DNA of 23,277 bases from a virus: UHGV virus genome UHGV-0070450. One strand, written 5' to 3'. The notes under the pieces were generated by a model, which was given only the letters and a program-made list of their open reading frames with translations, was not told where the DNA came from and searched no databases. A program made the translations under genes and the position numbers. Positions 406 through 17,499 of this stretch are shown here, piece by piece. Each line of letters starts with the position of its first letter. The first letter of the stretch is position 1.

Positions 406-620
406 CTAAAGTCTGGAGCTTAAGAAATGCTTCATAATTCAGTAAGGCATTAGCATAATGGAAATGAAAGTGCAGAGACTATCCCTATGGATGATTAATA
501 CTGTCTTTTTATTGCCCCCCATAATTAATCACCAGACCAATACGATCAAATTGATATTTGAAATGTGTTCACTTGACTTTTGATACGTTATTTTATAACG
601 GTTAACATATTTATAAAAAC

Positions 621-643
621 AACGGGCGTGTTATACGCCCGTT
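621..643. terminator. Stem-loop, probable intrinsic terminator downstream of the icd 3' fragment (possibly bidirectional)
   Basis: Perfect 9-bp inverted repeat AACGGGCGT / ACGCCCGTT with 5-nt loop; followed on the minus strand by a T-run (GTTTTTAT), 24 nt after the icd-fragment stop. Confidence 0.45.
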
Positions 644-666
644 TCAATATTTAACACATATAGAGA

Positions 667-831
667 TTACATATTCTTGATGATCGCGTCACCAAATTCT
701 GAACATTTCAGCAGTTTAGCGCCCTCCATCAGACGTTCGAAGTCATAGGTTACGGTCTTGGCGTTGATTGCGCCTTCCATACCTTTAACAATCAGGTCAG
801 CCGCTTCAGTCCAGCCCATATGGCGCAGCAT
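667..831 (-). pseudogene. icd: 3'-terminal fragment of isocitrate dehydrogenase gene (icdC-like); prophage attachment-site remnant
   Basis: Minus-strand translation [54 protein letters not shown] matches the C-terminus of Icd. Similarity stops abruptly at about 831, where non-icd AT-rich DNA begins. Confidence 0.8.
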
Positions 832-972
832 TAGATTTAGAAAATTATTATATCCAATTGAATTAAAACAATTTTATACTTAACGAACATCTAAACTTGT
901 TTTTTTACCTTCACCATAACTCGCTGATTTTGTATAGTTTACGTAGCGTTTTGATAACCACTTTATGGCAAA

Positions 973-1302
973 ATGGAGGTTCGCTTGAAAACTTCTGTTC
1001 TTATCCAGAAATTAATGGAAATTGACAAAACTGTACTATTCGATGCGGACGTAGTGACCGGTGAGGAATGGTGGCCAACCCCGATTTCTCGTGTTTATCA
1101 CAATCCGCCACATACTTATGTAGAATTTTAAACAGGTGAACAATCTCAAAATGAATCTGACGAGCTAAGTGTTTATAGCGAATTACAAATTTGTGCACAT
1201 CGAATGATGCAAATTAGAGATTTTGTGCAATCTAACGAGGGACTGAAACCTGAAAAAATTGTTTCGGAAATAAACATTCAAATTGAACGTATTAAAAAGT
1301 GA
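973..1302 (+). pseudogene. Unassigned ORF interrupted by an in-frame TAA (1129-1131); possible decayed cargo gene
   Basis: ATG at 973 gives MEVRLKTSVLIQKLMEIDKTVLFDADVVTGEEWWPTPISRVYHNPPHTYVEF, then TAA, then the same frame continues for 56 more codons (TGEQSQNESDELSVYSELQICAHRMMQIRDFVQSNEGLKPEKIVSEINIQIERIKK*). No obvious Shine-Dalgarno; function unknown. Confidence 0.2.
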
Positions 1303-1367
1303 TGGCTGAAGCAATTCTGAAACACTAATTCATATTCTATGTTATTCATACCAATGTGGATTTAACT

Positions 1368-1401
1368 CCCACCAACCCACCAACCCACCAACCCACCAAC
1401 C
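1368..1401. repeat. Tandem octamer repeat (CCCACCAA) x 4.25
   Basis: Direct read: cccaccaa cccaccaa cccaccaa cccaccaa cc, immediately upstream of the ATG at 1402 and 257 bp upstream of the restriction gene start. Confidence 0.9.
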
Positions 1402-1657
1402 ATGATTGGGCGGCGCAAGAAATTAATATCAATTAAAACAGCAAGTTATCAGTCTAAACAGAACACCAACGGGATGGAGGAGAGACAAAAAATATCCAAT
1501 GAAACCGTAGCGCGTCAGCATTCAAAAGCGGGGTTTCTTATTTTTACTTCACCAGTAACAAATACACTGTATCATAACTACATAAAAATGATTGTTCTGA
1601 CTCAGATGAATTTCTTACTCTTGTGGAATGTCACTTAATGTTATTTATAGGTAAACA

Positions 1658-3547
1658 ATGAAATCCGAAACGCTAACCATCCAGCAAATTTTCCAAAATC
1701 AACGACAATATCGTGTTCCATTCTATCAACGTGCCTACGTATGGACGCAACGAAACCAATGGTCAGCTTTGTTGGAGGATATCTTCGAAAAAGCACAGAG
1801 CCGACTTTCGGGAACAAAACCAACCCCTCATTTCCTCGGCGCGGTGGTGCTGGAACCTCAACTCAAAAACAGCTTGTTAGGTGTAGATACCATACATATT
1901 ATTGACGGCCAGCAACGTTTAACCACTCTTCAATATATTCTGGCATCCATTCGATTATCATTGCGTGCTACAGGCCTTTCTGAACTGGAAGGGTTAGTAT
2001 TGACTTGCTTGAAAAATACAAACGAAGCAACGATGAGAAATAAAAAGGTAGAATGCTTCAAACTGTGGCCAACTTTTCGAGATCAAACTCATTTTATTCA
2101 AAGTCTTAATGTTGATAATATTGACGATCTCCGTAATGTATTTTCTGATAGCTTCACGCAACATGGTACGTTACGTAAACATTTCAACCACCCGCCGTCA
2201 CTAGAGGCATTATGGTTTTTTACTGAAGCCTTTATAAAATGGATTAAAATAGAAAACCACTCACCACAAGAAAATGCTGTAGCACTAATTGAGGCTGTCT
2301 TGACGGATCTGAAACTGGTAAGCATATTTCTCGAAGCTGAAGATGATGCCCAAATAATTTTTGAAACATTAAATGGGCGAGGAGCGGAACTTCATGCAAC
2401 GGATCTTATTCGCAACTATATCTTTATGTGCGCTGAGCATGAAAATATTAATGCTATTGAATTATATGAAAATGAGTGGAAGATCTTTGAAGATAAATAC
2501 TGGTCGGAAAAGCAACGCCGTGGACGTATTAATAAACCACGCATGGAGTGGCTTGTACATGCGACATTGCAATCAGAAAGGCAGCGTGAAATTGATCTGT
2601 CTCGCCTTTACAATGAGTATCGTGATTATGTAAGTAAGGACTTGCCTTCACAACGAGCAGATCTGCAAGTAAAGCGCCTCAAACAATATGCATCACAATA
2701 TAAAGAATTGGTTGGTGGTTTTGGCACAACCCCCATCTCACACTTTGGACATCGCATCGCAGCCTATGATGTGACGACACTCTATCCGCTTGCTTTGTTC
2801 ATTTCGATAGCTAACATCGCCGATGATGAGAAAGCAGCCATGTATAATGATCTTGTCTCCTACGTAGTACGAAGATCCGTATGTGGCCTGACGCCAAAGA
2901 ATTACAACAATGTATTTATGAATGTATTGCGACACTTGTCTAAAACGGAAATTTCCAGTGTTGAGTTACGTAATATCCTCAATAGCTTAAATGGCGAAGC
3001 CTCACGTTGGCCTGGGGACTCAGAATTTCTCAACGCTTGCATCAATGCTCCACTTTATCCTGGCAGGCTCGACGCACCGAAAATGCGCTCAATGTTAACG
3101 GAACTTGAAAGAGAACTTTGTCGCCAAGTGAAGACAGAAAAGCCTGATGTTCCAAATCTTTCTAATCTCGATATCGATCATCTTATGCCTCAAAGTTGGT
3201 ATTCCTGTTGGCCTCTCGAAAATGGTCATATGGTGACAAATTCAGATGCTACGGTAATGAACCAAATTGTTCTGTCTGGAACCGATCTTACCCCTGAACA
3301 GCTACTGGTAAGGAAACGGCAACAAGCGATAGCTACGTTGGGAAATCTAACTTTGCTTAACCTTAGCGTAAACCGTTCCGTTCAGAATGCTGTATTTCTG
3401 AAAAAACGTGATGCTCTCATCGTCCACACCAATCTACGACTGAACATACCACTTATACTTAAGGATAAATGGGATGAGAGTGAAATACAGGAGCGAGGTA
3501 AAAAGTTGGGGGAAATTGCATTGAAAGTATGGCCAAAATACGATTAA
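1658..3547 (+). CDS. GmrSD-like type IV (modification-dependent) restriction endonuclease; DUF262 (ParB-like NTPase) fused to DUF1524 (His-Me finger nuclease)
   Basis: 629-aa ORF. N-terminal part has RVPFYQRAYVW and IIDGQQRLTTL (DGQQR motif typical of DUF262); C-terminal part has DIDHLMPQSW ... NLTLLNLSVNRSVQN ... KKRD (H/N/N pattern typical of DUF1524). Sits where e14 carries mcrA. Confidence 0.75.
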   Translation: MKSETLTIQQIFQNQRQYRVPFYQRAYVWTQRNQWSALLEDIFEKAQSRLSGTKPTPHFLGAVVLEPQLKNSLLGVDTIHIIDGQQRLTTLQYILASIRLSLRATGLSELEGLVLTCLKNTNEATMRNKKVECFKLWPTFRDQTHFIQSLNVDNIDDLRNVFSDSFTQHGTLRKHFNHPPSLEALWFFTEAFIKWIKIENHSPQENAVALIEAVLTDLKLVSIFLEAEDDAQIIFETLNGRGAELHATDLIRNYIFMCAEHENINAIELYENEWKIFEDKYWSEKQRRGRINKPRMEWLVHATLQSERQREIDLSRLYNEYRDYVSKDLPSQRADLQVKRLKQYASQYKELVGGFGTTPISHFGHRIAAYDVTTLYPLALFISIANIADDEKAAMYNDLVSYVVRRSVCGLTPKNYNNVFMNVLRHLSKTEISSVELRNILNSLNGEASRWPGDSEFLNACINAPLYPGRLDAPKMRSMLTELERELCRQVKTEKPDVPNLSNLDIDHLMPQSWYSCWPLENGHMVTNSDATVMNQIVLSGTDLTPEQLLVRKRQQAIATLGNLTLLNLSVNRSVQNAVFLKKRDALIVHTNLRLNIPLILKDKWDESEIQERGKKLGEIALKVWPKYD

Positions 3548-3569
3548 TGCAATTAATAAAATGATTATA

Positions 3570-3593
3570 GCGGCCTTACATTAGTAAGGCCGC
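3570..3593. terminator. Stem-loop between convergent genes (restriction gene and pin remnant)
   Basis: Perfect 10-bp inverted repeat GCGGCCTTAC / GTAAGGCCGC with 4-nt loop; AT-rich flanks; the pin-remnant stop codon lies in the loop. Confidence 0.4.
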
Positions 3594-3772
3594 AACTCAC
3601 TATTAAATCCTTTAATTTGCATCAAGAACAGCACTGTCAGCCCTAGGCTCTCGGACTTTGTACCGCTTATCTTGTCTTCAAAAATCAGCTCGCATCCTGC
3701 ACAGTTCAACGCATTACGTTGTAGATCGATTTTCTGGTCATTTGTTGATACGCAAACATAGCCAATAAGCAT
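3581..3772 (-). pseudogene. pin: Pin/Gin/Hin-family serine DNA invertase, truncated after about 41 conserved residues
   Basis: From the ATG at 3770-3772 (GAGGGAG Shine-Dalgarno upstream): MLIGYVCVSTNDQKIDLQRNALNCAGCELIFEDKISGTKSE matches the invertase N-terminus, then diverges (SLGLTVLFLMQIKGFNSELRPY*). The conserved YVRVS motif reads YVCVS here. Confidence 0.75.
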
Positions 3773-3798
3773 GGTAGCTCCCTCTGACAAAAGCAGGA

Positions 3799-4188
3799 AT
3801 GATGCCATTTTCTCGTTATTTCTGCATTTTCATAAACGTTGGTTTGGGAGAATTATCTCTGGCTGGCACTGCATCGGGTGTCATTGGTCTGAATGGGTAT
3901 GTAACGATTCCGTTAATTATTTCAGGTTCCCGGAGAACACTGATTATTCAGTGGGGGCAGGCGAGATTTGGTGGGTCTGGTGGTGAAGATGCCGGATATC
4001 TTAATGATTTTCCTTTTGCCTTTCCGTCAGCATGTTATGGAATGATAGTTAGTCATGTGGGGCATACACCTTCAGGCGCAGGAATCCTGTCGGCTTCTGC
4101 AATTACATCAAATCAGTTCCGCGGTTTTTCAAGCATAGCGACTGCTGCAAATGCTGTATTAGGTCGTTATATCGCTATAGGGGGTTAA
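3799..4188 (+). CDS. Alternate tail-fibre C-terminal domain (promoterless copy inside the invertible segment)
   Basis: Contains TLIIQWGQARFGG, sharing the LIIQWG motif and a 17-bp identity (CTGATTATTCAGTGGGG) with the minus-strand fibre ORF. The track start at 3799 is probably not a true start because the ORF runs through the crossover site. Confidence 0.5.
   Translation: MMPFSRYFCIFINVGLGELSLAGTASGVIGLNGYVTIPLIISGSRRTLIIQWGQARFGGSGGEDAGYLNDFPFAFPSACYGMIVSHVGHTPSGAGILSASAITSNQFRGFSSIATAANAVLGRYIAIGG
3827..3852. other. Candidate invertase crossover site (hix/gix-like 26-mer), pin-proximal
   Basis: ttttcataaacgttggtttgggagaa; its reverse complement TTCTCCCAAACC... resembles the hix half-site TTCTTGAAAACC, and it pairs as an inverted partial repeat with 5267-5292. 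Confidence 0.4.
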
Positions 4189-4189
4189 T

Positions 4190-4627
4190 ATGTTTTATAG
4201 TCCATCATTAAACATTTTTGTGAATCCTGCGCTTAAGGATGATTACATTAATGCAAATTCATGGCCAGATGATGCTCTGGCTGTCAGTGATGATGTTTAT
4301 AATGAATTTGCAATCAATACGCCCCCATATGACAAAATTCGTGTTGCAGGAAAAAATGGATTACCCACATGGGCACTAATACCTCCACCATCGCATGAAG
4401 AACTTATTCAACAGGCAGAATCAGAAAGGCAATTATTGCTTAATCAGGCCAACGAATACATGAACAGTAAACAATGGCCCGGTAAAGCCGCTATTGGTCG
4501 TCTGAAAGACGAGGAACTGGCACTATATAATTTGTGGCTGGATTACCTGGACGCACTGGAACTGGTGGATACCTCCAGTGCTCCAGATATTGAATGGCCT
4601 ACACCTCCGGTAACTCAGGCCAGCTAA
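4190..4627 (+). CDS. Tail fibre assembly protein (Tfa family)
   Basis: 145-aa ORF immediately after the fibre segment, ending ...TSSAPDIEWPTPP, which parallels the ...TSTAPEISWPELP end of the convergent copy. Confidence 0.7.
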   Translation: MFYSPSLNIFVNPALKDDYINANSWPDDALAVSDDVYNEFAINTPPYDKIRVAGKNGLPTWALIPPPSHEELIQQAESERQLLLNQANEYMNSKQWPGKAAIGRLKDEELALYNLWLDYLDALELVDTSSAPDIEWPTPPVTQAS

Positions 4628-5024
4628 TCTCAGGAGCCGTCGAAGTGTCGACGGCTTTTACTTCTTTTTTGTAGTCCATCCAGGCGGATAGTTTTTCTTT
4701 ATCTGTACTGCTGATATCACCAAGCATTAATTCCACTCGCCAGTCAGCTGTGACATTATCGGCATGAGCAAGTAACTGCATTCGCTGATTTTCAGCACGT
4801 GCGACATAATCAATCGCCGGAGATTTCAGTACCGGTAAACCATTTTCATCTGACGTGATTAATTTACCCCCTTCCTGCTGTCCGGCAATTAATTCATTGT
4901 ATAAGTCTGTACTTATCTCAACAATGTCAGCAGGCATGTCGCTGTTTATACCATCAAAGAAAAAACCATTAGTCGATTTTGAGAAATAAATCATAGATAT
5001 ACCTATACACCGATTGCTACCCAA
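4599..5024 (-). CDS. Tail fibre assembly protein (Tfa family)
   Basis: 141-aa ORF; its 3' end overlaps the convergent tfa by about 29 bp, as in invertible G/P segments. Confidence 0.7.
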   Translation of the reverse strand: MGSNRCIGISMIYFSKSTNGFFFDGINSDMPADIVEISTDLYNELIAGQQEGGKLITSDENGLPVLKSPAIDYVARAENQRMQLLAHADNVTADWRVELMLGDISSTDKEKLSAWMDYKKEVKAVDTSTAPEISWPELPEV

Positions 5025-5524
5025 AAACAGGACCTTTCATATTTGACAATTTCTCCCTGAGATATACCGCCAACAATTATATAGAACTGTGATTTGGTGA
5101 TATCAGAACAGTTCGCAATGCCCATTGCAGATATACCCGCCACCGACGTTGTATGTGGTACAGCCAACAGCGCAAGTGAACGACTTGGGAATGTTACCGG
5201 GTAAGTCACCGTATAGTTTGATGCTCCACTGACTATACCCCACTGAATAATCAGACCTGAAGGGAGTTTTTGAAAACCCGTTGATGAAAGTGAACTGGCA
5301 AACGCCGCCATATCCGGAATTTGGTTTTGCTCGTTACCCACATTTCGTTTTGCCGCTTCTCCCAAACCAAGGTTTTGAAGAGCCGTTTTCACCGTGCCGT
5401 CCGGTTTGTCGCGGTTCGGGTATTCGTGCGTTTCCACACGACGACCGGTTCCCGCACTTTCTTCTTCAACCTTAAACGGCACACCGCGAAATGACGCGTC
5501 CTGAAGTCTGTCTTTCCACGTCAT
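5003..5524 (-). CDS. Chimeric tail protein: Mu gp43/N-like DNA-circulation N-terminus fused to a tail-fibre C-terminal domain
   Basis: Likely start MTWKDRLQDASFRGVPFKVEEESAGTGRRVETHEYPNRD (GGAG Shine-Dalgarno 5 nt upstream) resembles the DNA-circulation N-terminal signature; C-terminal half (GLIIQWGIVSGASNYTVTYPVTF...) is fibre-like. The track ORF extends to 5566. Confidence 0.55.
   Translation of the reverse strand: MTWKDRLQDASFRGVPFKVEEESAGTGRRVETHEYPNRDKPDGTVKTALQNLGLGEAAKRNVGNEQNQIPDMAAFASSLSSTGFQKLPSGLIIQWGIVSGASNYTVTYPVTFPSRSLALLAVPHTTSVAGISAMGIANCSDITKSQFYIIVGGISQGEIVKYERSCFWVAIGV
5267..5292. other. Candidate invertase crossover site (hix/gix-like 26-mer), distal
   Basis: tttttgaaaacccgttgatgaaagtg; left half TTTTTGAAAACC matches the recalled hix half-site TTCTTGAAAACC at 11 of 12 positions; lies inside the tail-fibre coding sequence. 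Confidence 0.4.
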
Positions 5525-5539
5525 ATAAACTCCGTACAT

Positions 5540-5561
5540 AAAAAATCCCACCGGAGTGGGA
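5540..5561 (-). terminator. Stem-loop with T-run just after the tape measure stop (minus strand)
   Basis: Minus strand reads TCCCAC-TCCG-GTGGGA followed by TTTTTT, between the tape measure stop (5585) and the next start (5524). Confidence 0.4.
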
Positions 5562-5584
5562 CTCATTAACAGATTAATTTTTCA

Positions 5585-7420
5585 TTACCTGCCAAAGCGC
5601 GTATAGCCAACATCATGGCTGACATCAAAACCGCTGGATCGCGTTTCCATAACCCGCATACCCGGAGGCGAATTCACAAAAGAGACCTTGATCTCACCAT
5701 CAACTTTTGGCGCAGAAGCTTTGTTAATCATGAAGGGATTCGGGCCTGTGGCACCGGAGGCGTTGTTTGACTGAGCCGGATCTACCGCCTGATAAGGCGT
5801 GTATCCCCGTGCCGGTATTCCCGTCCCATAAGCATCATAAGCACCCGCGCCCCACTGCGCAGAGTTAATGGCATCGACCGTGTCACCGGAACTGTCGGTA
5901 AACCACTCAATAATTGGCTTCAGTTTGTCCCACATATCCTGAAACCACTTAACAACCGGTCCCCAGTTATTGATTACCATCCCCAGCGGCGACCAGGCAA
6001 AAACCTTCTTCAGAAGTTCCCAGCCAGCCTCAAAATAAGGACCAATGGTTTCCCAGAGCTTCTTGAAATAAGGTCCGACAACATCCCAGTTAGTGATAAT
6101 TAATCCCGCAGCCAGGGCTATCGCCGTCGCAATCATGCCAATCGGCGTCATCGACATGATCCTGCTGACAATACTGATGGCACCGCCAACGCCCATCAAT
6201 CCCAGTTTCAGAATCGCAAGACCGGCAGCAAGCCCGACGACGCCGCGAATAACCCGGGGATTTTCATCCGCAAACTTCGTGAATTTTTCCCCTAACTCCC
6301 CCAGCCATTGCGTGATATTTTTGGCGTCACCAGAAAATGCGCCGCCAATAGCCGCAAGGCCGTTAGTTGCGGTCCCCGTCATTGCCTCCCACAGGTTGGA
6401 CAGCGTACCAAGCTGGGCCTGAACACGTTTATTCAGGCTGGCCTGTTTATTCATCTTCTGCTGGATCTGATCGTAGCCATCCTTTCCTTTATCGATTAGT
6501 GCATTGACCACCTGAAGGGTTTCGGCATCATCACCAAATATTGCCTTAAGTACACCTGTTCGCTTAACGTCGGTCAGTTTTCGCAGCTTTGCCAGTTGCC
6601 TGAACATGTTATCAAGACCGCCAAAACTTCCTTTGCCGTCAGTAAAATCGAGCTGTACCCCGAGTTTCTGGCGGGCCATGATTTTATTGACGTCCCTGAT
6701 TTTCTTAACGCTTAATCCGGACTGGATAACTTTTCGCAGGGCGTTACCTGCCGACTCCCCGTTCATCCCCATCTGATCCATCATGACGCTGATGGGGGCA
6801 AGGCTCTGTGCAGCCTGAAGACCGTCCTTGTTCACCATCTTCAGAACAGAGCTGGTTTTAGTGAAGAAGGACAACATGTTGGTATCGTCAACACCCAGAT
6901 AAAACGCCTTCTGGATAGTGTCGAACAGCCCCATCATGTCTTCTGACGCCGTTCCGGTAGCATCCTGCATCTTTGCAGCAAACTCAGCAGCCGCTTCCGG
7001 TGTTTTTTTCAGTTGTACCGCAAGATAAGCTGTCGCTTTACCCACACCGCCAAGAATGTTTTCTGCCGGGATCCCCTGACGCACCAGCATCTGCATCATG
7101 TTCTGGAAATCAGCCGTTGTACCGGGTAGCTGGTTACCCAGGCCAATAGCCAGTTTATTGATGTCCTGAAAGCTCTTTCCGACCTCGCCGTTCGCATCCA
7201 TCATGGCGACTTTCAGCCCGGTGGCGGCGTTTTCCTGATCGGCATAAGATTTCAGGGAAAGCGTCAGACCCGCTGCCAGTCCGCCACCAAGCGCCAGCCC
7301 ACCCTGTGACGCTTCTTCCGCCTGGCGTTTAAATCCCCGGATTTTCTTTTGCATTTTCGACAGCGCCGGAGAAAGCCTGTCGACACCGGTGATCAACGCC
7401 TTAAGCTCAAATTCAGCCAT
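5585..7420 (-). CDS. Tail tape measure protein
   Basis: 611-aa ORF with Ala/Gly-rich, helix-prone N-terminal two thirds, a hydrophobic segment (AAGLAILKLGLMGVGGAISIV...) and Trp-rich repeats. Follows the chaperone frameshift pair. Confidence 0.85.
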   Translation of the reverse strand: MAEFELKALITGVDRLSPALSKMQKKIRGFKRQAEEASQGGLALGGGLAAGLTLSLKSYADQENAATGLKVAMMDANGEVGKSFQDINKLAIGLGNQLPGTTADFQNMMQMLVRQGIPAENILGGVGKATAYLAVQLKKTPEAAAEFAAKMQDATGTASEDMMGLFDTIQKAFYLGVDDTNMLSFFTKTSSVLKMVNKDGLQAAQSLAPISVMMDQMGMNGESAGNALRKVIQSGLSVKKIRDVNKIMARQKLGVQLDFTDGKGSFGGLDNMFRQLAKLRKLTDVKRTGVLKAIFGDDAETLQVVNALIDKGKDGYDQIQQKMNKQASLNKRVQAQLGTLSNLWEAMTGTATNGLAAIGGAFSGDAKNITQWLGELGEKFTKFADENPRVIRGVVGLAAGLAILKLGLMGVGGAISIVSRIMSMTPIGMIATAIALAAGLIITNWDVVGPYFKKLWETIGPYFEAGWELLKKVFAWSPLGMVINNWGPVVKWFQDMWDKLKPIIEWFTDSSGDTVDAINSAQWGAGAYDAYGTGIPARGYTPYQAVDPAQSNNASGATGPNPFMINKASAPKVDGEIKVSFVNSPPGMRVMETRSSGFDVSHDVGYTRFGR

Positions 7421-7831
7421 GTGTGCGTTTCTCCTGCTCTATCCTGTTTGCCTGACTGACCAGCAAGGGAATTTCACTGATCGGCATATTCAGCAATTCG
7501 AAGGGATTAATGCGCCAGTAACTGGCGCAGTCAAAGAAGCGATCAGTGAGGTATTCAGCCGTCAGGCCTGGAGGAAAAAACCGGCCACAAGCCACGCCGC
7601 TGCATTCAGGTCTGCCGGAGACATCTGGTCGACAGAGCTTTGCGGCACTTTCGCCAGCCGCACGATGTATTTCGATACCACATGCGCCAGAAGTCTGACG
7701 GACTCATCCTGATTCATCTGGTAGGGATATCCCAGCTCGCGGACATCTTTCCCGGTGGGCTCATCAAACTCCAGTACGGAGAGTGTCTCGCCATGAGCGG
7801 TAATCGGTTTCTTTAACTCAAGCTCTTTCAT
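7413..7831 (-). CDS. Frameshift-extended tail assembly chaperone (P2 E+E' / lambda GT analogue) produced by a -1 slip
   Basis: A -1 shift at GGT TTT TTC gives the reading ...FFPPGLTAEYLTDRFFDCASYWRINPF..., which is the 60-aa overlapping ORF 7413-7595; it ends 8 nt inside the tape measure start. Confidence 0.5.
7562..7831 (-). CDS. Tail assembly chaperone (P2 gpE / lambda G analogue)
   Basis: 89-aa ORF between tube and tape measure genes, ending at a slippery heptamer. Confidence 0.6.
   Translation of the reverse strand: MKELELKKPITAHGETLSVLEFDEPTGKDVRELGYPYQMNQDESVRLLAHVVSKYIVRLAKVPQSSVDQMSPADLNAAAWLVAGFFLQA
7574..7580 (-). promoter_or_regulatory. Slippery heptamer T TTT TTC (programmed -1 ribosomal frameshift site)
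   Basis: Minus strand reads GCC GGT TTT TTC CTC CAG GCC TGA; X XXY YYZ pattern in the zero frame, 4 codons before the chaperone stop. Confidence 0.5.
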
Positions 7832-8187
7832 TACTGGTAATCCCCTTCTTCACCGTGGAACTCAAGATCAACCGTGCCTTCTTCGGCATTATGGTTCGCT
7901 TCGCCGTGCAGCCAGGCAGACGACAGTACATAGACCTGACCGTTCGCCAGCTCGGCAGTGATTGTCATCTCATCAGACGAGGTGATTTTGTTCACCGGAA
8001 AATTCTTCGGCACCTTGAAGGTCCCTTTGACATAAGGCGCACGGTGAGTTTCCTTGCGGTCCACTGAGCCGTCCAGGCCGATGATGTCATCATTGACCGT
8101 CCTGTTCATGGGCACCTCAATGCCGCCGGTCAGCGATAGCTGCTGACCGTCAATTTTGAAATAACAGGTTCCCCCGATACGGGCCAT
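7831..8187 (-). CDS. Tail tube protein (Mu M / P2 FII-like)
   Basis: 118-aa ORF directly after the sheath gene (ATGA-type overlap at 8187), the conserved sheath-tube-chaperone-tape measure order. Confidence 0.7.
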   Translation of the reverse strand: MARIGGTCYFKIDGQQLSLTGGIEVPMNRTVNDDIIGLDGSVDRKETHRAPYVKGTFKVPKNFPVNKITSSDEMTITAELANGQVYVLSSAWLHGEANHNAEEGTVDLEFHGEEGDYQ

Positions 8188-9683
8188 TATGCAGACTCCT
8201 CTGAATACTGAAGACGGAACTGGTTAACCACGGCAAAGACACGCAACTGGTTAACATAGTCAGGCGGGAACAGCGTGTTCAGGCGGTTCGGATCGCTGGC
8301 ATCACGCTCCACAACCAGGTACTGCTTGAACAGTTCGTAGTTTTCCACGATCCCCGCACGCTCGAGCTGACGGTAGGTTGCCAGCAGTTCCCCTTTGATC
8401 ACCGCCGGGGTGACAATCGCCTGACCGGGACCAAAGCGGGTACCGTCACTGGCAAGCTTGTGACGCCCGTACTTACTGGTAATGACGGATTTCAGTTTGC
8501 GCAGTACATACGCGCTGGTATGCAGCGTCTCGCTGTCGAGGTAGCTGTTATCCGCAACCCCGTAAGCGTTTTTCCTGTACGTGGTGACATCACGCTGAAT
8601 GCGCAGTACCCCGCTTTCGACATACGCCGTTGCCACGCCATGAGACAGCAGGGTCTGTTGTTCGGTCATCGTGAACCGTTTCCCCTTCGGCGCAGGCTGC
8701 ATACCCACCAGCTCACCGGTCTGCGTGGGACGTGCCGGATCGTTGCGGATAAACACCGCTGCGCGGGCGGTACGGCTTGCCGCCAGCTCGTCGGCAGGTG
8801 TCTGGGTTTCTTTTTCGTACCCCGCCAGGGTAATGTGCTGCTGGTTAAACTGGTCACCTGCGGTCACCAGTTCTGACAGCGTACCGGTCTTTGCCGTATA
8901 CACATGACCATACAGCTGACGAGCATAGCTCCAGCGACCGCTGGTATCGTTCATCTCGGTCACCAGCGTGTTAACGGAGGCCGTGTCGTTGAACGGCAGA
9001 CCGATATAATCAAACGGCTCATCCGCCATTGCAGCCACCGCACCGGTGAGAACAGGAGCGCCCGTTCCGGCGGTACCCGTCGCCACAGCAATCTGTACAC
9101 CCGCTGGCAGCACTTCGCCCCCACCAAAGCCGTAGTAATTGAGGCTGACAGGAATTTCATTCCCGCAAAGCCCCTTATGACGCGCGGTCAGTGTGACCAC
9201 GCCTGCCGAAGATGAAGCCGTAAACGGCAGGGCCGGAACGGCATTGATGGCATCTTTGATACTGCTGGCAATCGTCGCGACGTTATCGCCGTTGGTCACC
9301 GGTGCCTGCACGCGGGTACGTCCCACATAAACATTCACCGTGCCGGTTTCGGTTGCTGCCCCGGTCACCGTCAGCGTAACCGTTGCCGCCGCGCCTGTGG
9401 CTTCCGGAACGGCAATCACATACAGCTCGCCAAACGGGTCAGTCTGGCGATAAGCCTCGACCATACGCGCCAGCTGACTTCCCGCACCACAAATCTGGCG
9501 TGCATAGTCTGCCGACGGCATCAGTACCAGACTGTTGGTAACAATCTCTGCACCGTTATTGGCATGACCAATCAGCAACGATGCCCCGCTGTCCTGTGCA
9601 GTATTCGCCGCCTGGTTATCCATTTCCGCATAAAACAACGGAACCAGCGTATTCGACGGAATGGTGTTAAAGCTTATCGTCAT
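8187..9683 (-). CDS. Contractile tail sheath protein (Mu L / P2 FI-like)
   Basis: 498-aa ORF; N-terminus MTISFNTIPSNTLVPLFYAE is typical of myovirus sheath proteins; position before tube gene. Confidence 0.8.
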   Translation of the reverse strand: MTISFNTIPSNTLVPLFYAEMDNQAANTAQDSGASLLIGHANNGAEIVTNSLVLMPSADYARQICGAGSQLARMVEAYRQTDPFGELYVIAVPEATGAAATVTLTVTGAATETGTVNVYVGRTRVQAPVTNGDNVATIASSIKDAINAVPALPFTASSSAGVVTLTARHKGLCGNEIPVSLNYYGFGGGEVLPAGVQIAVATGTAGTGAPVLTGAVAAMADEPFDYIGLPFNDTASVNTLVTEMNDTSGRWSYARQLYGHVYTAKTGTLSELVTAGDQFNQQHITLAGYEKETQTPADELAASRTARAAVFIRNDPARPTQTGELVGMQPAPKGKRFTMTEQQTLLSHGVATAYVESGVLRIQRDVTTYRKNAYGVADNSYLDSETLHTSAYVLRKLKSVITSKYGRHKLASDGTRFGPGQAIVTPAVIKGELLATYRQLERAGIVENYELFKQYLVVERDASDPNRLNTLFPPDYVNQLRVFAVVNQFRLQYSEESA

Positions 9684-9702
9684 CGGTATTCACCTTTTTA
9701 TT

Positions 9703-9837
9703 CACGCGCCGGATATCACCCGCTGCTTCACGGCGCAGCCAGTAGTTGTTCTCGTCAACATTTCGCCCTTCGGCGGGCAAAAGGTCGCCGCGGGCAGGAT
9801 CAGGAACTGACCGCCCTTTAACAGGTTTGACAAACAT
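9703..9837 (-). CDS. Small ORF between the gp37-like gene and the sheath gene (about 44 aa)
   Basis: ATG at 9835-9837: MFVKPVKGRSVPDPARGDLLPAEGRNVDENNYWLRREAAGDIRA*. Below the ORF-track size cutoff; coordinates approximate. Confidence 0.3.
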
Positions 9838-9845
9838 GAGGATCC

Positions 9846-10406
9846 TCAGGAAGGAAGGGTTATTTCGGTGTGATGTTCGATATCGCCGTCAGGCCCGTTA
9901 CCGGGCTCGAGATAATCAACATCAATCGCCAGCGTTTGCAGTTCATCCAGACTGTTCAGATCATCCTGCTGGCGGGTATCGTCTTCGGTCAGCTCGCTGA
10001 TGACCGAAAAATCGAACTGATAAATCAGCTCATGACGATTCAGATCCAGCAGCGTGCCGCCGTCATAGGTAATCGGGTTACCGCACGCCTCCGGGTTCCA
10101 GCCCAGCAGGGCCTTAAAGAGCATCTGCCGGACATCGTCCACCACATCATACGAGGCAAACTGACCGCGCTCATCACGCCCGTTACTCAGTATGACAACC
10201 ACGGAGAAACCCTCTTTCAGCTCCTGCCAGTAGTCGGTCTGGCTTTTGTTTTCTCCCGGAGAATCATCACCCGGTACAACATATGCCGCCGGGAGTTTCA
10301 GCTTTCCGACCTCCGGCAGATTTTTGAACTGGGCCGCGCCTGCAACCCGGTTTTCAAAATACGGACAGCGGGCACGCAGTGCAGCAATAACAGGCGTCAG
10401 TTTCAT
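9846..10406 (-). CDS. Phage virion protein (Mu gp37-like; tail completion/terminator candidate)
   Basis: 186-aa acidic ORF between head-completion genes and sheath; family assignment by position and composition only. Confidence 0.45.
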   Translation of the reverse strand: MKLTPVIAALRARCPYFENRVAGAAQFKNLPEVGKLKLPAAYVVPGDDSPGENKSQTDYWQELKEGFSVVVILSNGRDERGQFASYDVVDDVRQMLFKALLGWNPEACGNPITYDGGTLLDLNRHELIYQFDFSVISELTEDDTRQQDDLNSLDELQTLAIDVDYLEPGNGPDGDIEHHTEITLPS

Positions 10407-10909
10407 CTGTGTCGTCGCTCCGGCTTCAGTGATTTACGCAATTCCCGCGCCAGAAAATAGCGTGTCCAGCTGCGGTTCTTTTCAAGCGTTTCCACCATGA
10501 AGTTATTACGTGGAGCCAGTCGCCAGCCGCTGCCACCGGATGCACCACGATGATGGCTGCGACGACGCTTTGCCCCTCGCCTCACACCATAGAACAAAAA
10601 AGCCGGATAAAAATCACCGCTGATACGGCGGTTTCCCTCTCCATTACGCTGGTTAGGGGCTATACGTGCCATAAAACCAGGGCGATGTTTACTGGCTCTG
10701 GGTACCATGTAACCAATCGAACGAGCCAGGCGTCCGGTCTGATAACCGGGGTTTTCACCCGGTGCCGACCGCGCACGGCGCATCACCAGCCGACGGGCAT
10801 CACGCATATGACGCTGACCAATCGTGACAAACGCCCGCCGGACACGGGCGCGGTTAAAGCGCATCTCCGCGGGCTGCTGAAAATCAACGTGCAAAAAGGA
10901 AGTCGTCAT
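10403..10909 (-). CDS. Basic phage virion morphogenesis / head-tail completion protein
   Basis: 168-aa, Arg-rich ORF overlapping neighbours by 4 and 26 nt; position between head closure and tail genes. Confidence 0.45.
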   Translation of the reverse strand: MTTSFLHVDFQQPAEMRFNRARVRRAFVTIGQRHMRDARRLVMRRARSAPGENPGYQTGRLARSIGYMVPRASKHRPGFMARIAPNQRNGEGNRRISGDFYPAFLFYGVRRGAKRRRSHHRGASGGSGWRLAPRNNFMVETLEKNRSWTRYFLARELRKSLKPERRHR

Positions 10910-11294
10910 TGTTGCCTCCGTGACTCTGCCTACATTCGCCCAGCTCCGTACACTCCAGCAGCAGAAAGCGCCGCGCCCCGTTCAGATCGCGCTGACGTTT
11001 CACCCGGTACACACTGTCACCGCAGACCACCTCATAATCAGCGGTGATCCCCCGGCGATAACGAATGGTGATGTAATGGGTGATGGCGTCCCCTGTCTGC
11101 GCGGTTTCCTGCCAGGTGGTGGCACTGGTCTGGATAACCTTCGCCCATGTCCGGAACGTAACCGGGTATTGAGGCTCCACGCCAAAGTTATCCGCGGGCA
11201 TATCCACCCGCAGGCGGATCAGGACGCGTTTATTCAGTTCACCGGGGTCCGGCAGAATGTAGGTTGCGCTGGTCTGCGCCTGACGAATTTTCAT
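10884..11294 (-). CDS. Head closure / head-tail adaptor protein
   Basis: 136-aa ORF immediately after the gp6-like connector gene (ATGA overlap at 11291-11294). Confidence 0.5.
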   Translation of the reverse strand: MKIRQAQTSATYILPDPGELNKRVLIRLRVDMPADNFGVEPQYPVTFRTWAKVIQTSATTWQETAQTGDAITHYITIRYRRGITADYEVVCGDSVYRVKRQRDLNGARRFLLLECTELGECRQSHGGNNDDFLFAR

Positions 11295-11614
11295 TGCGGA
11301 AAGTACCTGTACGGGCCGACAAGCCAGCCAAAACTCTGCGGCATGTCGAGTTTCTCCACTTCCGTAACCGACGAGCGGTTTTCGTAAAAATGGCTGATAA
11401 GCATCAGCATCCCCAGACGAATATCATCCGGCAGGTGCAGCCCGTCCGGATCGCTGTCCGGAATGGTTTCATCCGGTGCATAGAGCTTCCGGTTCAGATA
11501 CGTTTCCGTCCGCTTTTGTGCCGCACAGGCCAGCAGTTGCAGATGGCGGTCATCAGCATCGAAATCCTCATCCAGCCGGAGTTGGGCTTTAATCTCTTCC
11601 ATTGTCAGAAGCAT
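11291..11614 (-). CDS. gp6-like head-tail connector protein
   Basis: 107-aa ORF; N-terminus MLLTMEEIKAQLRLDEDFDADDRHLQLL resembles the recalled gp6-like family start. Confidence 0.6.
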   Translation of the reverse strand: MLLTMEEIKAQLRLDEDFDADDRHLQLLACAAQKRTETYLNRKLYAPDETIPDSDPDGLHLPDDIRLGMLMLISHFYENRSSVTEVEKLDMPQSFGWLVGPYRYFPQ

Positions 11615-11616
11615 AC

Positions 11617-11817
11617 TCAGCCCTCTTTACTGGTCGTGGCTTTTTTCTCTTTTGCCGCTTTACTGCTTTTTGCACTGGTTCCGCGCTCTGCTAACCCGGC
11701 CTGAAGTGCAATCTCCTGCACCCGGGCAGGAAGCGCCCCGTCGTCATACTCACCGGCCCGAATGACCTCAACACGCATACCGTCCGGTGACCATTTCAGA
11801 TCTTGTTTCAGGATCAT
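11617..11817 (-). CDS. Small head-module protein, unknown function
   Basis: 66-aa ORF between capsid and connector genes; Lys/Ala/Ser-rich C-terminal tail. Confidence 0.4.
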   Translation of the reverse strand: MILKQDLKWSPDGMRVEVIRAGEYDDGALPARVQEIALQAGLAERGTSAKSSKAAKEKKATTSKEG

Positions 11818-11839
11818 GATTCTTCACCCGCCAGAACAG

Positions 11840-11859
11840 GGGGCGCGGTTCCGCGCCCC
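11840..11859 (-). promoter_or_regulatory. GC-rich stem-loop 7 nt after the major capsid stop
   Basis: GGGGCGCGG tt CCGCGCCCC, 9-bp perfect stem; no T-run after it on the minus strand, so more likely an RNA stability or attenuator element than a full terminator. Confidence 0.4.
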
Positions 11860-11866
11860 TGAGTGA

Positions 11867-13072
11867 TTACGCCGCTGCAATCTTCAGCAGTTTGATGGCC
11901 TGCGAATCGACCAGCATCCCGCCGGTGCGCTTGGTGGTATAAAAACCGACAAACGGTTTATTGGTGTACGGGTCACGCAGAATGCGGGTGCCGATACGGT
12001 CAACGATGGTGTAACCCCGTTTGAAGTTACCAAATGCAATGGCTTTCGCATCAGCGGCGATATCCGGCATCTGTTCGTTTTCAGCGATACCGTAACCCGC
12101 CAGAGAGGACGGCTGCCCCAGTTCCAGCCCCGGACGCCACAGATAGTTACCCTCGGTGTCTTTCAGCAGACGGATGGCAAACAGGCTGTTGTTGTTCATC
12201 ATGAACTTCGCGCCGGTGCGGTGTGCCTTACGCAGCGTGTAAATCAGTTTGATAATGGCGTCTGCGGTCACCGCAGTCGCGTCGCCGGATACAATATGCT
12301 GAAGTTTGCCGAACGCCCGGACCTTATCGGTTTCATCCGTGGATTCATACGCCAGGAACCCTTTCGGCTTCTTGGTACCATCGCCGGTGGTAAAGGCAAT
12401 TTCTTCCTGTTCGGCAAATTCGGTTGCCAGCTCGCTGTTGATCCATGCTTCCACGTTGAAAAAGGCATCATCCAGCATTTTCTGGGTGGCCTGCGGGTTA
12501 CCGTAGATTTCCCCCATGAAAGGTTCAATCAGGCCCAGTTTTGAGGTGGCAGTCTGGGAGCGCGCGTCAGTCTCGCCAACCCATCCGGAAGCCGTGCCGC
12601 CCAGATTCACCAGTTTTTTGTAGTCGGAACCACCAACGGTGATCACCGTGGCTTCCTGGCGCATCACCACTTCATCTTTCAGCAGGGTCAGAATGTTGCG
12701 ATCCAGCGCTTCCGGCACGGCATAGCCGCCGTCTTCATCGGTGCCCACCTGTAATGCCTTGCGCTCCAGATCGCGCAGACCATCTTCACGGCCTTTACGC
12801 AGGAAGCCCACAAACGCTTCTTTATGCTCGGTGGTCAGTTTATTTTGCGCACCACCTGCCGGACGTTTCAGCTCAAGCAGCTCTTTTTCAAGATCGCTTT
12901 TGAGGTTTTCCAGCTCGCTGAGTTTTCCGTTCAGGGTTTCCACCTGCCCGGCAAGCTTGCCTTTTTCCTGCTCAATCGCATCCACGCGCTTGTCGTTCTT
13001 TGCTTTGAAGTCGTCAAACTTCTGCTGCAGCTCCTGCGCGACCTGTTCGACATCTTTAATATCAACCGCCAT
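11867..13072 (-). CDS. Major capsid protein, HK97 fold, with N-terminal coiled-coil (scaffold/delta-like) region
   Basis: 401-aa ORF; first ~70 residues heptad-like (KLAGQVETLNGKLSELENLKSDLEKELLELK), remainder typical of HK97-type capsid proteins; follows the protease gene. Confidence 0.9.
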   Translation of the reverse strand: MAVDIKDVEQVAQELQQKFDDFKAKNDKRVDAIEQEKGKLAGQVETLNGKLSELENLKSDLEKELLELKRPAGGAQNKLTTEHKEAFVGFLRKGREDGLRDLERKALQVGTDEDGGYAVPEALDRNILTLLKDEVVMRQEATVITVGGSDYKKLVNLGGTASGWVGETDARSQTATSKLGLIEPFMGEIYGNPQATQKMLDDAFFNVEAWINSELATEFAEQEEIAFTTGDGTKKPKGFLAYESTDETDKVRAFGKLQHIVSGDATAVTADAIIKLIYTLRKAHRTGAKFMMNNNSLFAIRLLKDTEGNYLWRPGLELGQPSSLAGYGIAENEQMPDIAADAKAIAFGNFKRGYTIVDRIGTRILRDPYTNKPFVGFYTTKRTGGMLVDSQAIKLLKIAAA

Positions 13073-13086
13073 CGTATTTCTCCTGA

Positions 13087-13773
13087 TTAGAAGTTCAGAT
13101 TTTTCAGTGCATTCAGTGCAGAGCCCACATCCTCAGCGTCGCGCAGGGACAGTGCGCCATAGCCCCCGGCCATGAATGCTTTGGCCTGGGTACGGGAGAG
13201 TCCGACATCACGCAGGACTCTTTCGATTTTTTTCTGTTCGGGGATTTCCCCGCGGGCCAGTGCGTTCTTGACGTCGCTGATCCGCGCCTCGTCGTTAGAC
13301 GGGAACGTCACCAGGCTGACTTCCCAGAGGTCGATTTCTTTCAGCAGAAAGGCTTCTTTGCTCCGGTCGTATTCCCAGTCTTTCAGGACGTACCCAATAG
13401 AAAGGCCGGTTAACGAACCGGCCTTCATGTGTGCATGTGCGCGTTTTGCGAGGGGATCATCATCAATAAGCAACCGTCCCCTGACGTAAAGCCCGACATC
13501 GTCTTCCTTCATTTCGGTGTAAACACCGATGGGTTCATCCATGCGGTGCTGCCAGAGCAGCGCAGGTAACGCTTTTCTGTCACTCCACGCCCGCAGGGAA
13601 GCAGCAAATGCCCCGGACATCACCACATCATCGTGGCTGTCCTTTACACCAAAGACGGAGCCATACCCTTCAAACTCACCGGAGTCACTGACAGATTTCA
13701 GACTCAGCGGTACATCAAGACGTTGTTTCGTCTGCATTGGCGTTATCCTTCTGCTTACCGGCTTTACTGCCAT
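13087..13773 (-). CDS. Prohead protease (HK97 family)
   Basis: 228-aa ORF with EGYGSVFGVKDSHDDVVMSGAF motif region, between portal and capsid genes. True start may be an internal Met because the track start overlaps the portal 3' end. Confidence 0.85.
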   Translation of the reverse strand: MAVKPVSRRITPMQTKQRLDVPLSLKSVSDSGEFEGYGSVFGVKDSHDDVVMSGAFAASLRAWSDRKALPALLWQHRMDEPIGVYTEMKEDDVGLYVRGRLLIDDDPLAKRAHAHMKAGSLTGLSIGYVLKDWEYDRSKEAFLLKEIDLWEVSLVTFPSNDEARISDVKNALARGEIPEQKKIERVLRDVGLSRTQAKAFMAGGYGALSLRDAEDVGSALNALKNLNF

Positions 13774-14956: not shown

Positions 14957-15138
14957 TATTTACCTCCGCCGACAGACGACTGTGTACGGTCGAGATATCG
15001 CGCCACCAGCCACGACCAGAACAGGCACAACGCCCCGGCAACAACAAACCCCGCCGGGGGATAAATCAGCCAGGCACCATACGCCAGCAAAAGCGCCCCC
15101 AGCACGCCCACCAGAGGCGCGAGAATCAGCATGATCAT
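14956..15138 (-). CDS. Small predicted membrane protein (two hydrophobic helices) between the terminase and portal genes
   Basis: 60-aa [52 protein letters not shown]...; GAGGT Shine-Dalgarno about 5 nt upstream; fills the gap exactly (12 nt after the terminase stop, 1 nt overlap with the portal start). Confidence 0.4.
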
Positions 15139-15149
15139 AATTACCTCAG

Positions 15150-17383: not shown

Positions 17384-17499
17384 TCCTGGTTAAATTTCAT
17401 TTTTCGCGGGTATAAAAAAACGATGGGGCGGGCAGTCCGGAAGACGTCAGGCCGCAGGGATTTGACCCGCCCCTCCCCTCAGGCAGTTGAGAATCATTA
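17384..17499. other. Intergenic region between HNH and terminase small-subunit genes with a GC-rich inverted repeat; candidate cos/packaging-site region
   Basis: GGGGCGGG (17425-17432) and CCCGCCCC (17466-17473) flank a 33-nt spacer. Confidence 0.3.

What the first reader, a model, noticed from the sequence alone, without database searches (positions are those of the whole stretch)
832..3772. Type IV restriction cargo at the prophage right end: a GmrSD-like enzyme occupies the e14 mcrA position, with the breakpoint inside pin
In E. coli K-12 e14 the right end reads stf/tfa - pin - mcrA - icd fragment (established knowledge from the K-12 gene order). Here the same position holds a DUF262/DUF1524 fusion instead, and the pin gene is cut after about 41 codons, so the swap appears to have happened by recombination within pin. 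This suggests the prophage end next to attR is a hotspot for exchanging modification-dependent restriction genes. The region is also AT-rich relative to the phage structural genes.
Basis: partly seen in the sequence, partly recalled or inferred. Interest (0 to 1): 0.6.

Follow-up and report, generated by a model that had tools for sequence, protein, structure and literature searches.

The report
Prototype GmrSD restriction gene in prophage
The gene is not merely GmrSD-like: it is letter-for-letter the well-studied E. coli GmrSD enzyme that cuts sugar-modified T4-type phage DNA, carried at the tail-fibre end of an e14-type prophage, so the enzyme is known and only its genomic history adds a modest new detail.

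Summary
Window 1658-3547(+) encodes a 629-aa GmrSD_N (DUF262) + GmrSD_C (DUF1524) protein. It lies between the displaced icd 3' fragment (667-831) and a pin invertase stump (about 3637-3772), the slot that mcrA fills in K-12 e14. The region is 39% GC, against 55% for the structural genes.

The protein is 100% identical to the published single-chain EcoCT596GmrSD and 627/629 identical to Eco94GmrSD. Both were shown experimentally to cut glc-5hmC/5hmC DNA and restrict T4 lacking IPI*. The neighbouring invertase and tail-fibre assembly ORFs were also reported for CT596. The enzyme is therefore already known.

What is added here:
- **Old junction.** The pin'-gmrSD junction is base-for-base the same in prophages at other chromosomal sites (ssrA, near paoD). 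It predates the about 7% divergence of gmrSD alleles and did not arise at this icd locus.
- **Fossil att site.** The outer border of the cassette is a fossil ssrA-type att core plus trailer.
- **Variable slot.** In other icd prophages the same slot holds mcrA (330 genomes), an McrBC-family pair (289), a Type II R-M plus PD-T4-3 (3), or sitABCD.

The hotspot idea is supported. A direct mcrA-to-gmrSD swap at this locus is not. Interest is low to moderate.

The parts
667..831 (-). icdC: the displaced 3' end of icd (54 codons), marking attR of the icd-integrated prophage. Homology to K-12 ends at about 835.
   Evidence: Pfam Iso_dh positions 301-348 of 348; alignment to K-12 icdC; RefSeq pseudogene in A42.
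836..1355 (.). attR-proximal arm found in a subset of icd prophages. It holds a decayed small ORF: 113 aa and intact in strain GPEC206-621, but broken here by a TAA at about 1129-1131 and a 2-bp indel.
   Evidence: 59 genomes carry the arm. It is 90% identical to L006/L007, where different cargo follows.
1356..1401 (+). Fossil ssrA-type att core: a diverged copy of the last ~26 nt of tmRNA, expanded into (CCCACCAA) x 4.2 at 1368-1401.
   Evidence: Sequence comparison with UTI89 ssrA and with L006 and L016; TRF.
1402..1657 (+). gmrSD upstream leader. 1402-1492 is a diverged copy (73.6%) of the trailer that follows ssrA in UTI89. From 1393/1437 onward the sequence is shared with every gmrSD module examined. 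A promoter-like site lies at 1548-1575, but it is not above chance.
1658..3547 (+). gmrSD: single-chain Type IV modification-dependent endonuclease, 629 aa, identical to EcoCT596GmrSD. DGQQR motif at residues 83-87; His-Me finger residues D507, H508, N522.
3570..3593 (+). 10-bp GC-rich hairpin directly after the gmrSD stop codon. It is conserved in all gmrSD modules and is a likely transcript end or stabiliser.
   Evidence: The 81-nt stretch 3545-3625 that contains it folds at -24.2 kcal/mol, z = -5.7; conserved in alignment A3.
3637..3772 (-). pin': the 5' stump of the Pin-family serine invertase gene, about 45 codons, with R7C in the catalytic YxRVST motif. By inference it retains the region where Hin/Gin/Cin carry their Fis-dependent enhancer.
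   Evidence: RefSeq pseudogene.
3834..3852 (.). Left crossover (cix/pix-like) inverted repeat of the invertible tail-fibre P segment. It is the right-hand limit of the conserved gmrSD module.
   Evidence: Inverted repeat I1. Homology to L003 and L004 ends at 3852. The same sequence was reported as the e14 inversion site in PMC12529663.
3853..5356 (.). Invertible P segment: two alternative fibre C-termini (3799-4188 +, and the 3' part of 5003-5566 -) and two tail-fibre assembly genes (4190-4627 +, 4599-5024 -).
   Evidence: Pfam Gp53-like_C and Caudo_TAP. Found in the opposite orientation in FT130 and ARS-C101.
5357..5375 (.). Right crossover inverted repeat of the P segment.

Best explanation
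Window 1658-3547 is the gmrSD gene itself. It encodes a single-chain Type IV restriction endonuclease.

**How the enzyme works (published for this exact sequence and for a 2-residue variant)**
- The N-terminal DUF262 domain (DGQQR motif) mediates stimulation by NTPs.
- The C-terminal DUF1524 His-Me finger (D507-H508-N522) cuts DNA carrying glucosyl-5hmC or 5hmC.
- The lysogen therefore destroys incoming T-even phage DNA, unless the phage injects an inhibitor such as T4 IPI*.

**Where it sits**
- It is carried as AT-rich cargo in the 'b-region-like' slot between the tail-fibre invertase gene and the attachment site of an e14/SfII-type prophage integrated in icd.

**How it got there (inferred)**
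1. gmrSD entered this slot once, in a relative that integrated at ssrA. That event removed the 3' two-thirds of pin and left gmrSD next to that phage's attP.
2. The block [fossil att(ssrA) trailer - gmrSD - hairpin - pin' - cix] has since moved between related prophages. Movement is by homologous recombination in conserved flanks: tail-fibre/pin' on one side, att-proximal sequence on the other. Integration modules were also swapped.
3. This brought it to the icd phage, where it occupies the position mcrA has in K-12.

In this window the prophage is also crippled by a 5.1-kb baseplate deletion, so gmrSD now acts as a fixed host defence gene.
For: **Shown here**
- Domain architecture and motifs.
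- 629/629 identity to CT596GmrSD and 627/629 to Eco94GmrSD, using sequences taken from Suppl. Fig. S1 of PMC4437046. The UniRef name is Q8KTH0_ECOLX.
- Flanks are homologous to K-12 e14 on both sides of the slot.
- The pin'-gmrSD junction and hairpin are identical in four contexts, with gmrSD alleles at >=99%, ~97% and ~93% identity in 304 of 5426 genomes.
- The shared module runs from 1393/1437 to 3852.
- Fossil ssrA core and trailer.
- Alternative cargo in the same slot of icd prophages: mcrA+icdC in 330 genomes; McrC-like plus AAA_5 ATPase+icdC in 289, whose boundary lies 12 nt past the pin stop; Type II REase, C5-methyltransferase and PD-T4-3 behind the same arm in 3 genomes.
- The near-identical A42 prophage runs on to xisE/intE. 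The window has a 5130-bp deletion relative to it.

**From the literature**
- Enzymology and phage restriction (PMC4437046; review PMC12707154).
- An invertase ORF and tail-fibre assembly ORFs were already noted next to gmrS/gmrD in CT596 (PMC4619093).
Against: - Expression of the gene in this particular strain was not shown. No promoter stands out above chance, and the AT-rich context could be silenced.
- The order of historical events (ssrA phage first, icd phage later) is inferred from a diverged att relic and from the distribution of alleles, not from a dated phylogeny.
- Contexts were inspected directly for only a few genomes per allele group.
- The window core is only 73.6% identical to the ssrA trailer over 110 nt (E 2e-11).
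Confidence: 0.85

Rival explanations
1. Local swap: in an e14 prophage already sitting at icd, gmrSD directly replaced mcrA plus the 3' part of pin.
For: gmrSD and mcrA occupy the same interval between pin and icdC, and the inner breakpoint is inside pin.
Against: - The identical junction is present in prophages at ssrA and near paoD, with gmrSD alleles 3-7% diverged.
- No trace of mcrA or its spacers flanks gmrSD.
- The outer flank is a fossil ssrA-type att site plus an arm that K-12 e14 lacks.
Confidence: 0.08
2. The gene is present but non-functional or silent here: a decaying passenger in a defective prophage, or an allele with altered specificity like the UTI89 enzyme, which does not restrict T4.
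For: - The prophage is defective: pin is truncated, it has a 5.1-kb baseplate deletion, and the small arm ORF is decayed.
- The region is AT-rich.
- The UTI89 homologue was inactive in vitro.
Against: - The ORF is intact and identical to the CT596 enzyme, which is active in its native lysogen and when cloned at single copy.
- The identical or near-identical ORF is kept intact across 56 genomes at >=99% identity.
Confidence: 0.1
3. The 'fossil ssrA att site' is not a relic of integration. It is a functional element: a landing site for a small cargo-carrying integrative element, or a cis signal or small gene (ORF 1402-1638) serving each cassette.
For: - Core-plus-trailer copies sit at the outer edge of two different cargo sets in three chromosomal contexts.
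- Homology begins within 2-3 nt of the same base in each.
- An ORF starting MIGR... is roughly preserved in frame.
Against: - No integrase accompanies the cassettes.
- In the window the core is degenerate, and the trailer's terminator stem is lost.
- No Rfam family matches.
- RefSeq does not call the ORF.
Confidence: 0.1

Closest known systems
EcoCT596GmrSD (prototype GmrS/GmrD, resequenced as a single chain; GenBank AF493796) and Eco94GmrSD (WP_000834395)
   Same: 629/629 and 627/629 residues identical. Same domains and the same D507-H508-N522 site. Same neighbours (invertase fragment, tail-fibre assembly genes) and prophage-borne.
   Different: Nothing at the protein level relative to CT596. 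Relative to Eco94 there are two substitutions, R316H and Q611L. The published descriptions do not mention the icd/e14 slot or the pin truncation.
EcoUTI89GmrSD (UTI89_C2960)
   Same: 585/629 residues identical. Same pin'-gmrSD junction and hairpin, next to the tail-fibre P segment of a related prophage.
   Different: Its prophage is integrated at ssrA. Extra cargo (PD-T4-3, an Aga-like protein, dinI') lies between it and ssrA. It is reported as insensitive to IPI*, as not restricting T4, and as inactive in vitro.
McrA of cryptic prophage e14 (E. coli K-12)
   Same: Also a Type IV modification-dependent HNH-type nuclease carried as cargo between pin and the icdC/attR end of an icd-integrated prophage.
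   Different: Unrelated protein with a different target (5mC/5hmC in C5mCGG-type contexts). pinE is intact, and the cassette border lies just after the pin stop.
McrBC-family pair in icd prophages (for example strains EC27, ETEC1720, N1241)
   Same: Same slot, bounded by icdC and the 3' end of pin. Predicted modification-dependent system: Pfam McrBC plus an AAA_5 ATPase.
   Different: Two-gene, GTPase-type system. Its specificity is untested, and pin is damaged at its 5' end by IS elements rather than at its 3' end.
BrxU and SspE (other DUF262/DUF1524 nucleases)
   Same: Same two-domain logic: a ParB-like NTPase domain plus a His-Me finger.
   Different: Only distant sequence similarity. PADLOC SspE hits fall in the N-terminal domain only. 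No BrxU or SspE chain was recovered in the PDB sequence search. The genomic settings differ: a BREX island and a phosphorothioate system.
Lambda b region / moron slots and the P2-P4 defence hotspots
   Same: A non-essential, AT-rich, highly variable cargo region between the tail-fibre genes and attP, filled with anti-phage genes that are exchanged between related prophages (general knowledge; searches show the variability here).
   Different: A different phage lineage (e14/SfII-type with Mu-like tail genes). Here the slot is bounded by a Pin-family invertase gene, and several occupants are Type IV enzymes.

Membership tests
GmrSD family Type IV restriction endonucleases | N-terminal DUF262 / GmrSD_N domain with the DGQQR motif | tested here: met
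   PF03235, residues 8-256, E 1.7e-33; IIDGQQRL at residues 81-88.
GmrSD family Type IV restriction endonucleases | C-terminal DUF1524 / GmrSD_C His-Me finger with DHxxP...N | tested here: met
   PF07510, residues 451-619, E 4.9e-20. D507, H508 and N522 are present; these are the residues shown to be essential by mutagenesis in Eco94GmrSD.
GmrSD family Type IV restriction endonucleases | Sequence identity to an experimentally characterised member | tested here: met
   629/629 to CT596GmrSD and 627/629 to Eco94GmrSD; PADLOC mREase_IV at 1524 bits over the full length.
GmrSD family Type IV restriction endonucleases | NTP-stimulated cleavage of glc-5hmC/5hmC DNA but not unmodified DNA; in vivo restriction of T-even phage; inhibition by T4 IPI* | not testable with these tools
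   Published for the identical CT596 sequence and the 2-residue variant Eco94 (PMC4437046). Not measured for this strain.
e14-type prophage integrated in icd | Duplicated icd 3' fragment (icdC) at the prophage end, adjacent to ycgX/ymgL | tested here: met
e14-type prophage integrated in icd | Pin invertase gene plus an invertible tail-fibre P segment flanked by inverted repeats | tested here: inconclusive
   The P segment and repeats are present, but pin is a ~45-codon stump. Inversion would need an invertase supplied in trans.
e14-type prophage integrated in icd | intE/xisE integration module at the other end, next to icd | not tested
   This lies outside the window. It is present in the 99.4%-identical A42 prophage.
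Prophage cargo / defence hotspot | Unrelated gene sets between the same conserved flanks in related elements | tested here: met
   mcrA, an McrBC-family pair, gmrSD, or Type II R-M plus PD-T4-3 all lie between icdC and the pin/tail-fibre genes. sitABCD occupies it in another phage type.

The most novel reading that the evidence does not exclude
The interval between the Pin-family invertase gene and attP in e14/SfII-type prophages may be a dedicated exchange slot that preferentially collects anti-T-even, modification-dependent nucleases (McrA, McrBC-type, GmrSD, PD-T4-3). Cassettes would be shuffled between phages of different integration specificity through conserved flanks, leaving fossil att sites as footprints. 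The retained pin' stump would then be more than debris: it would keep the cis-acting enhancer, so tail-fibre switching can still be driven in trans by other resident Pin proteins.
Probability: 0.35. Interest if true: 0.45.

Novelty: already known. Interest (0 to 1): 0.25.

Why it matters
The enzyme and its role in the T4-host arms race (glucosylation, then GmrSD, then IPI*) are textbook material for restriction biologists, so the gene itself adds nothing new.

The comparative picture is of modest use:
- It places the founding GmrSD gene precisely in the e14 mcrA slot.
- It shows that three unrelated Type IV families alternate there.
- It shows that the gmrSD cassette, with its pin stump, is one old block that has hopped between prophages with different integration sites.

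This could help annotate 'DUF262 domain-containing protein' genes in about 5% of E. coli genomes as gmrSD. It also points to one more prophage hotspot to mine for defence genes.

Tried and rejected
- **NCBIfam:** no model hit for GmrSD or for pin'.
- **PDB sequence search:** only a weak N-terminal match to an unnamed DUF262 protein, 9jfl. No structure was predicted, because the protein is identical to a characterised enzyme.
- **Rfam on 600-4000:** nothing meaningful, and in particular no tmRNA hit for the short relic. ARAGORN found no tRNA or tmRNA gene in the window.
- **Promoter and terminator scan of 800-3900:** counts no higher than in shuffled sequence, so no promoter is claimed.
- **Phage collection (INPHARED):** no sequenced phage carries gmrSD; only the pin 5' end matches.
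- **Baseplate deletion by invertase recombination at a pseudo-cix site:** rejected. The junctions lie about 20-30 nt outside the crossover site and show only 4-5-nt microhomology.
- **ORF 1402-1638 (78 aa) as a real gene:** not annotated in RefSeq, and it overlaps the att trailer. Left as unlikely.
- **First literature search (GmrSD / e14 / icd):** swamped by medical 'ICD' papers. Later searches found no paper describing the icd/e14 slot for gmrSD.
Full report
**1. What is in the sequence**

The window opens with chromosomal ycgX (1-405, DUF1398). The last 54 codons of icd follow on the minus strand (667-831). Next come:
- an 826-bp stretch with no intact gene;
- a 629-aa ORF on the plus strand (1658-3547);
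- a strong hairpin at 3570-3593;
- the first ~45 codons of a serine invertase on the minus strand, with its ATG at 3772.

Beyond these lies a tail-fibre segment bounded by 19-nt inverted repeats at 3834-3852 and 5357-5375. GC content is 39.4% over 832-3772, against 55.2% over the structural genes at 5585-17850.

**2. Comparison with K-12 e14**

The K-12 record gives the order stfE - pinE - mcrA - icdC - iraM.
- Window and K-12 align through icdC up to the att core (...GCGCAGCATTAG) and diverge at window ~835.
- They align again from 3637 through the pin start codon to the crossover repeat at 3852, at 90% identity.
- The Pin residues match K-12 PinE at 38 of the first 41 positions, then only patchily to about residue 48.

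The ORF therefore fills the interval that mcrA fills in e14, and the inner breakpoint is inside pin. The nearly identical prophage of strain A42 (99.4% over the whole window) continues to xisE/intE, so this is an e14-type prophage of about 38 kb.

**3. Identity of the protein**

- Pfam finds GmrSD_N (E 1.7e-33) and GmrSD_C (E 4.9e-20).
- The PADLOC model mREase_IV matches end to end at 1524 bits.
- The exact sequence is widespread and carries the UniRef name Q8KTH0_ECOLX.

He et al. 2015 (PMC4437046) print the sequences of the CT596, Eco94 and UTI89 enzymes in their Supplementary Fig. S1. A direct comparison gives:

| Enzyme | Identical residues |
|---|---|
| Resequenced single-chain EcoCT596GmrSD | 629/629 |
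| Eco94GmrSD (differs at R316H, Q611L) | 627/629 |
| UTI89 enzyme | 585/629 |

DGQQR and D507-H508-N522 are present.

The published work shows the following (review):
- NTP-stimulated, Mg/Mn-dependent cleavage of glc-5hmC and 5hmC DNA;
- cutting between two modified cytosines 17-23 bp apart;
- loss of activity in D507/H508/N522 mutants;
- roughly million-fold restriction of T4 lacking IPI*.

An invertase-like ORF and tail-fibre assembly ORFs beside gmrS/gmrD in CT596 were already noted, as quoted in PMC4619093. Eco94GmrSD was described as lying just downstream of the tail-fibre genes of an SfII-like prophage. The enzyme, its function and its general prophage setting are therefore already known.

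**4. The break in pin is old and not specific to this locus**

gmrSD occurs in 304 of 5426 complete E. coli genomes, in three allele groups: 56 at >=99% identity, 29 at about 97%, and 218 at about 93%. I inspected one or two genomes per group:
- UTI89: the prophage abuts ssrA.
- ARS-C101: the prophage lies next to paoD and a LysR fragment, with a Type IIG/ISP R-M enzyme beside gmrSD.
- Strain 1283: only a remnant survives.

In all of them homology with the window runs from 1393/1437 through gmrSD. In UTI89 and ARS-C101 it continues through the pin stump to 3852; in strain 1283 it stops at 3718, inside the stump. The alignment shows the same junction, the same hairpin and the same stump in each.

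One insertion that removed the 3' two-thirds of pin therefore predates the about 7% divergence of the alleles, and the block has since travelled between prophages with different integration sites. No mcrA-flank sequence is present next to gmrSD. A direct mcrA-to-gmrSD swap in e14 is not supported.

**5. The outer border is a fossil att site**

- Window 836-1355 is an arm found in 59 genomes.
- In three of these genomes the arm is 90% identical, and different cargo follows it: a Type II endonuclease, a C5-methyltransferase and a GIY-YIG protein that matches PD-T4-3.
- The arm's 113-aa ORF is intact there but broken in the window.

Immediately after the arm, those genomes carry a near-perfect copy of the last ~26 nt of ssrA plus the ~150-nt trailer that follows ssrA in UTI89 (95% over 178 nt). 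The window has a diverged version (73.6% over 110 nt, E 2e-11), with the core expanded into (CCCACCAA) x 4.2.

The same core and trailer precede the R-M/PD-T4-3 cargo in a prophage next to paoD. There the left flank is different, and homology begins within 2-3 nt of the same base.

My reading, which is inference: these cassettes once lay directly beside the attP of an ssrA-integrating phage. Integration modules were later exchanged, leaving the old att site as a footprint at the cassette border.

**6. The slot is variable**

Interval between icdC and the pin/tail-fibre genes in icd prophages:

| Cargo | Genomes (of 5426) |
|---|---|
| mcrA | 330 (many K-12 derivatives) |
| McrC-like protein (Pfam McrBC) + AAA_5 ATPase; cassette starts 12 nt after the pin stop | 289 |
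| gmrSD | 54-59 |
| Type II R-M + PD-T4-3 | 3 |
| sitABCD, in a different, common phage type | 6 of the 10 sampled icdC contexts |

This fits the long-known behaviour of the lambda b region and other prophage cargo slots, so it is an instance of a known pattern.

**7. The pin stump and tail-fibre switching**

- The stump carries R7C in the catalytic motif and cannot encode an invertase.
- Even so, FT130 (flanks 99.3% identical to the window) and ARS-C101 have the P segment in the opposite orientation.
- Only 12 of the 30 listed matches continue past 3852 in the window's orientation. The other 18 stop exactly at the crossover repeat.
- PinQ and PinR from other cryptic prophages invert the e14 P segment in trans (PMC12529663).
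- In Hin, Gin and Cin the Fis-dependent enhancer lies in the 5' part of the invertase gene. This comes from my own knowledge and was not checked here. The stump would retain the equivalent region (about 3683-3752).

Continued inversion in trans is thus plausible but untested.

**8. State of this prophage**

Relative to A42 the window lacks 5130 bp: ymfQ, baseplate J, gp46, V, a baseplate protein and most of the DNA-circularisation protein. The junction is at 5403-5408 and creates the fusion ORF 5003-5566. The element cannot build a baseplate, so gmrSD is effectively a fixed host gene here.

**9. Verdict**

- It understates the match (identical to the prototype, so the proposed test is already published) and misplaces the event (an old junction inherited across integration sites, not a swap at e14).
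- Novelty: already known for the enzyme. The history of the slot is a small comparative addition.
- Interest: 0.25.

Noticed in passing
window 5403-5408 (junction); fusion ORF 5003-5566(-): The prophage lacks 5130 bp that strain A42 has (L008 15909-21038: ymfQ, baseplate J, gp46, V, a baseplate protein and most of the DNA-circularisation protein). This fuses the first ~53 codons of the DNA-circularisation gene to a tail-fibre C-terminus. Strain FT130 has an independent deletion whose right end lies only 8 nt away.
   Followed up: partly
window 1356-1492; L006 5523-5700; L016 ~2505-2690; L003 1191-1368: A fossil ssrA-type att core plus trailer sits at the outer edge of cargo cassettes in prophages integrated at icd, near paoD and at ssrA. 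In the window the core is degenerate and expanded into a (CCCACCAA) x 4.2 repeat (1368-1401), and the matches of other strains stop at different points around it, which suggests the repeat differs between strains.
   Followed up: partly
window 973-1131 and onward to ~1327: A small ORF in the attR-proximal arm is intact (113 aa, no Pfam or PADLOC hit) in GPEC206-621. In the gmrSD lineage it is broken by a stop codon and a 2-bp indel.
   Followed up: partly
window 616-661: iraM and ymgK (818 bp in K-12) are absent between ymgL and icdC. In K-12 that block is bracketed by a 46-bp direct repeat of the icd-downstream terminator region. This suggests iraM itself came or went by recombination at this site. 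Some gmrSD-bearing genomes do have iraM.
   Followed up: no
window 20256-21431(+) and 21434-22648(+): A second AT-rich insert (35.6% GC) lies between the holin gene and the Q antiterminator. It encodes an NA37 nucleoid-associated-family protein (Pfam E 1.2e-23) and a 404-aa protein with no Pfam or PADLOC match. It may be further prophage cargo of unknown role.
   Followed up: partly
window 18327-18665(+): A Bor/Iss-type serum-resistance lipoprotein gene (Lambda_Bor, E 2.4e-30) lies next to the lysis genes.
   Followed up: no
window 3853-5356; L009 7802-9118; L004 7172-8107: The invertible tail-fibre segment is found in both orientations among prophages that share the same dead pin stump. This implies inversion by invertases supplied in trans, or segment replacement.
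   Followed up: partly
L003 1796-3949; L004 1105-4281: gmrSD prophages at other sites stack more defence genes outward of gmrSD. UTI89 has PD-T4-3 (GIY-YIG) and a protein with an Aga-like REase domain. ARS-C101 has a Type IIG/ISP restriction-modification enzyme.
   Followed up: partly
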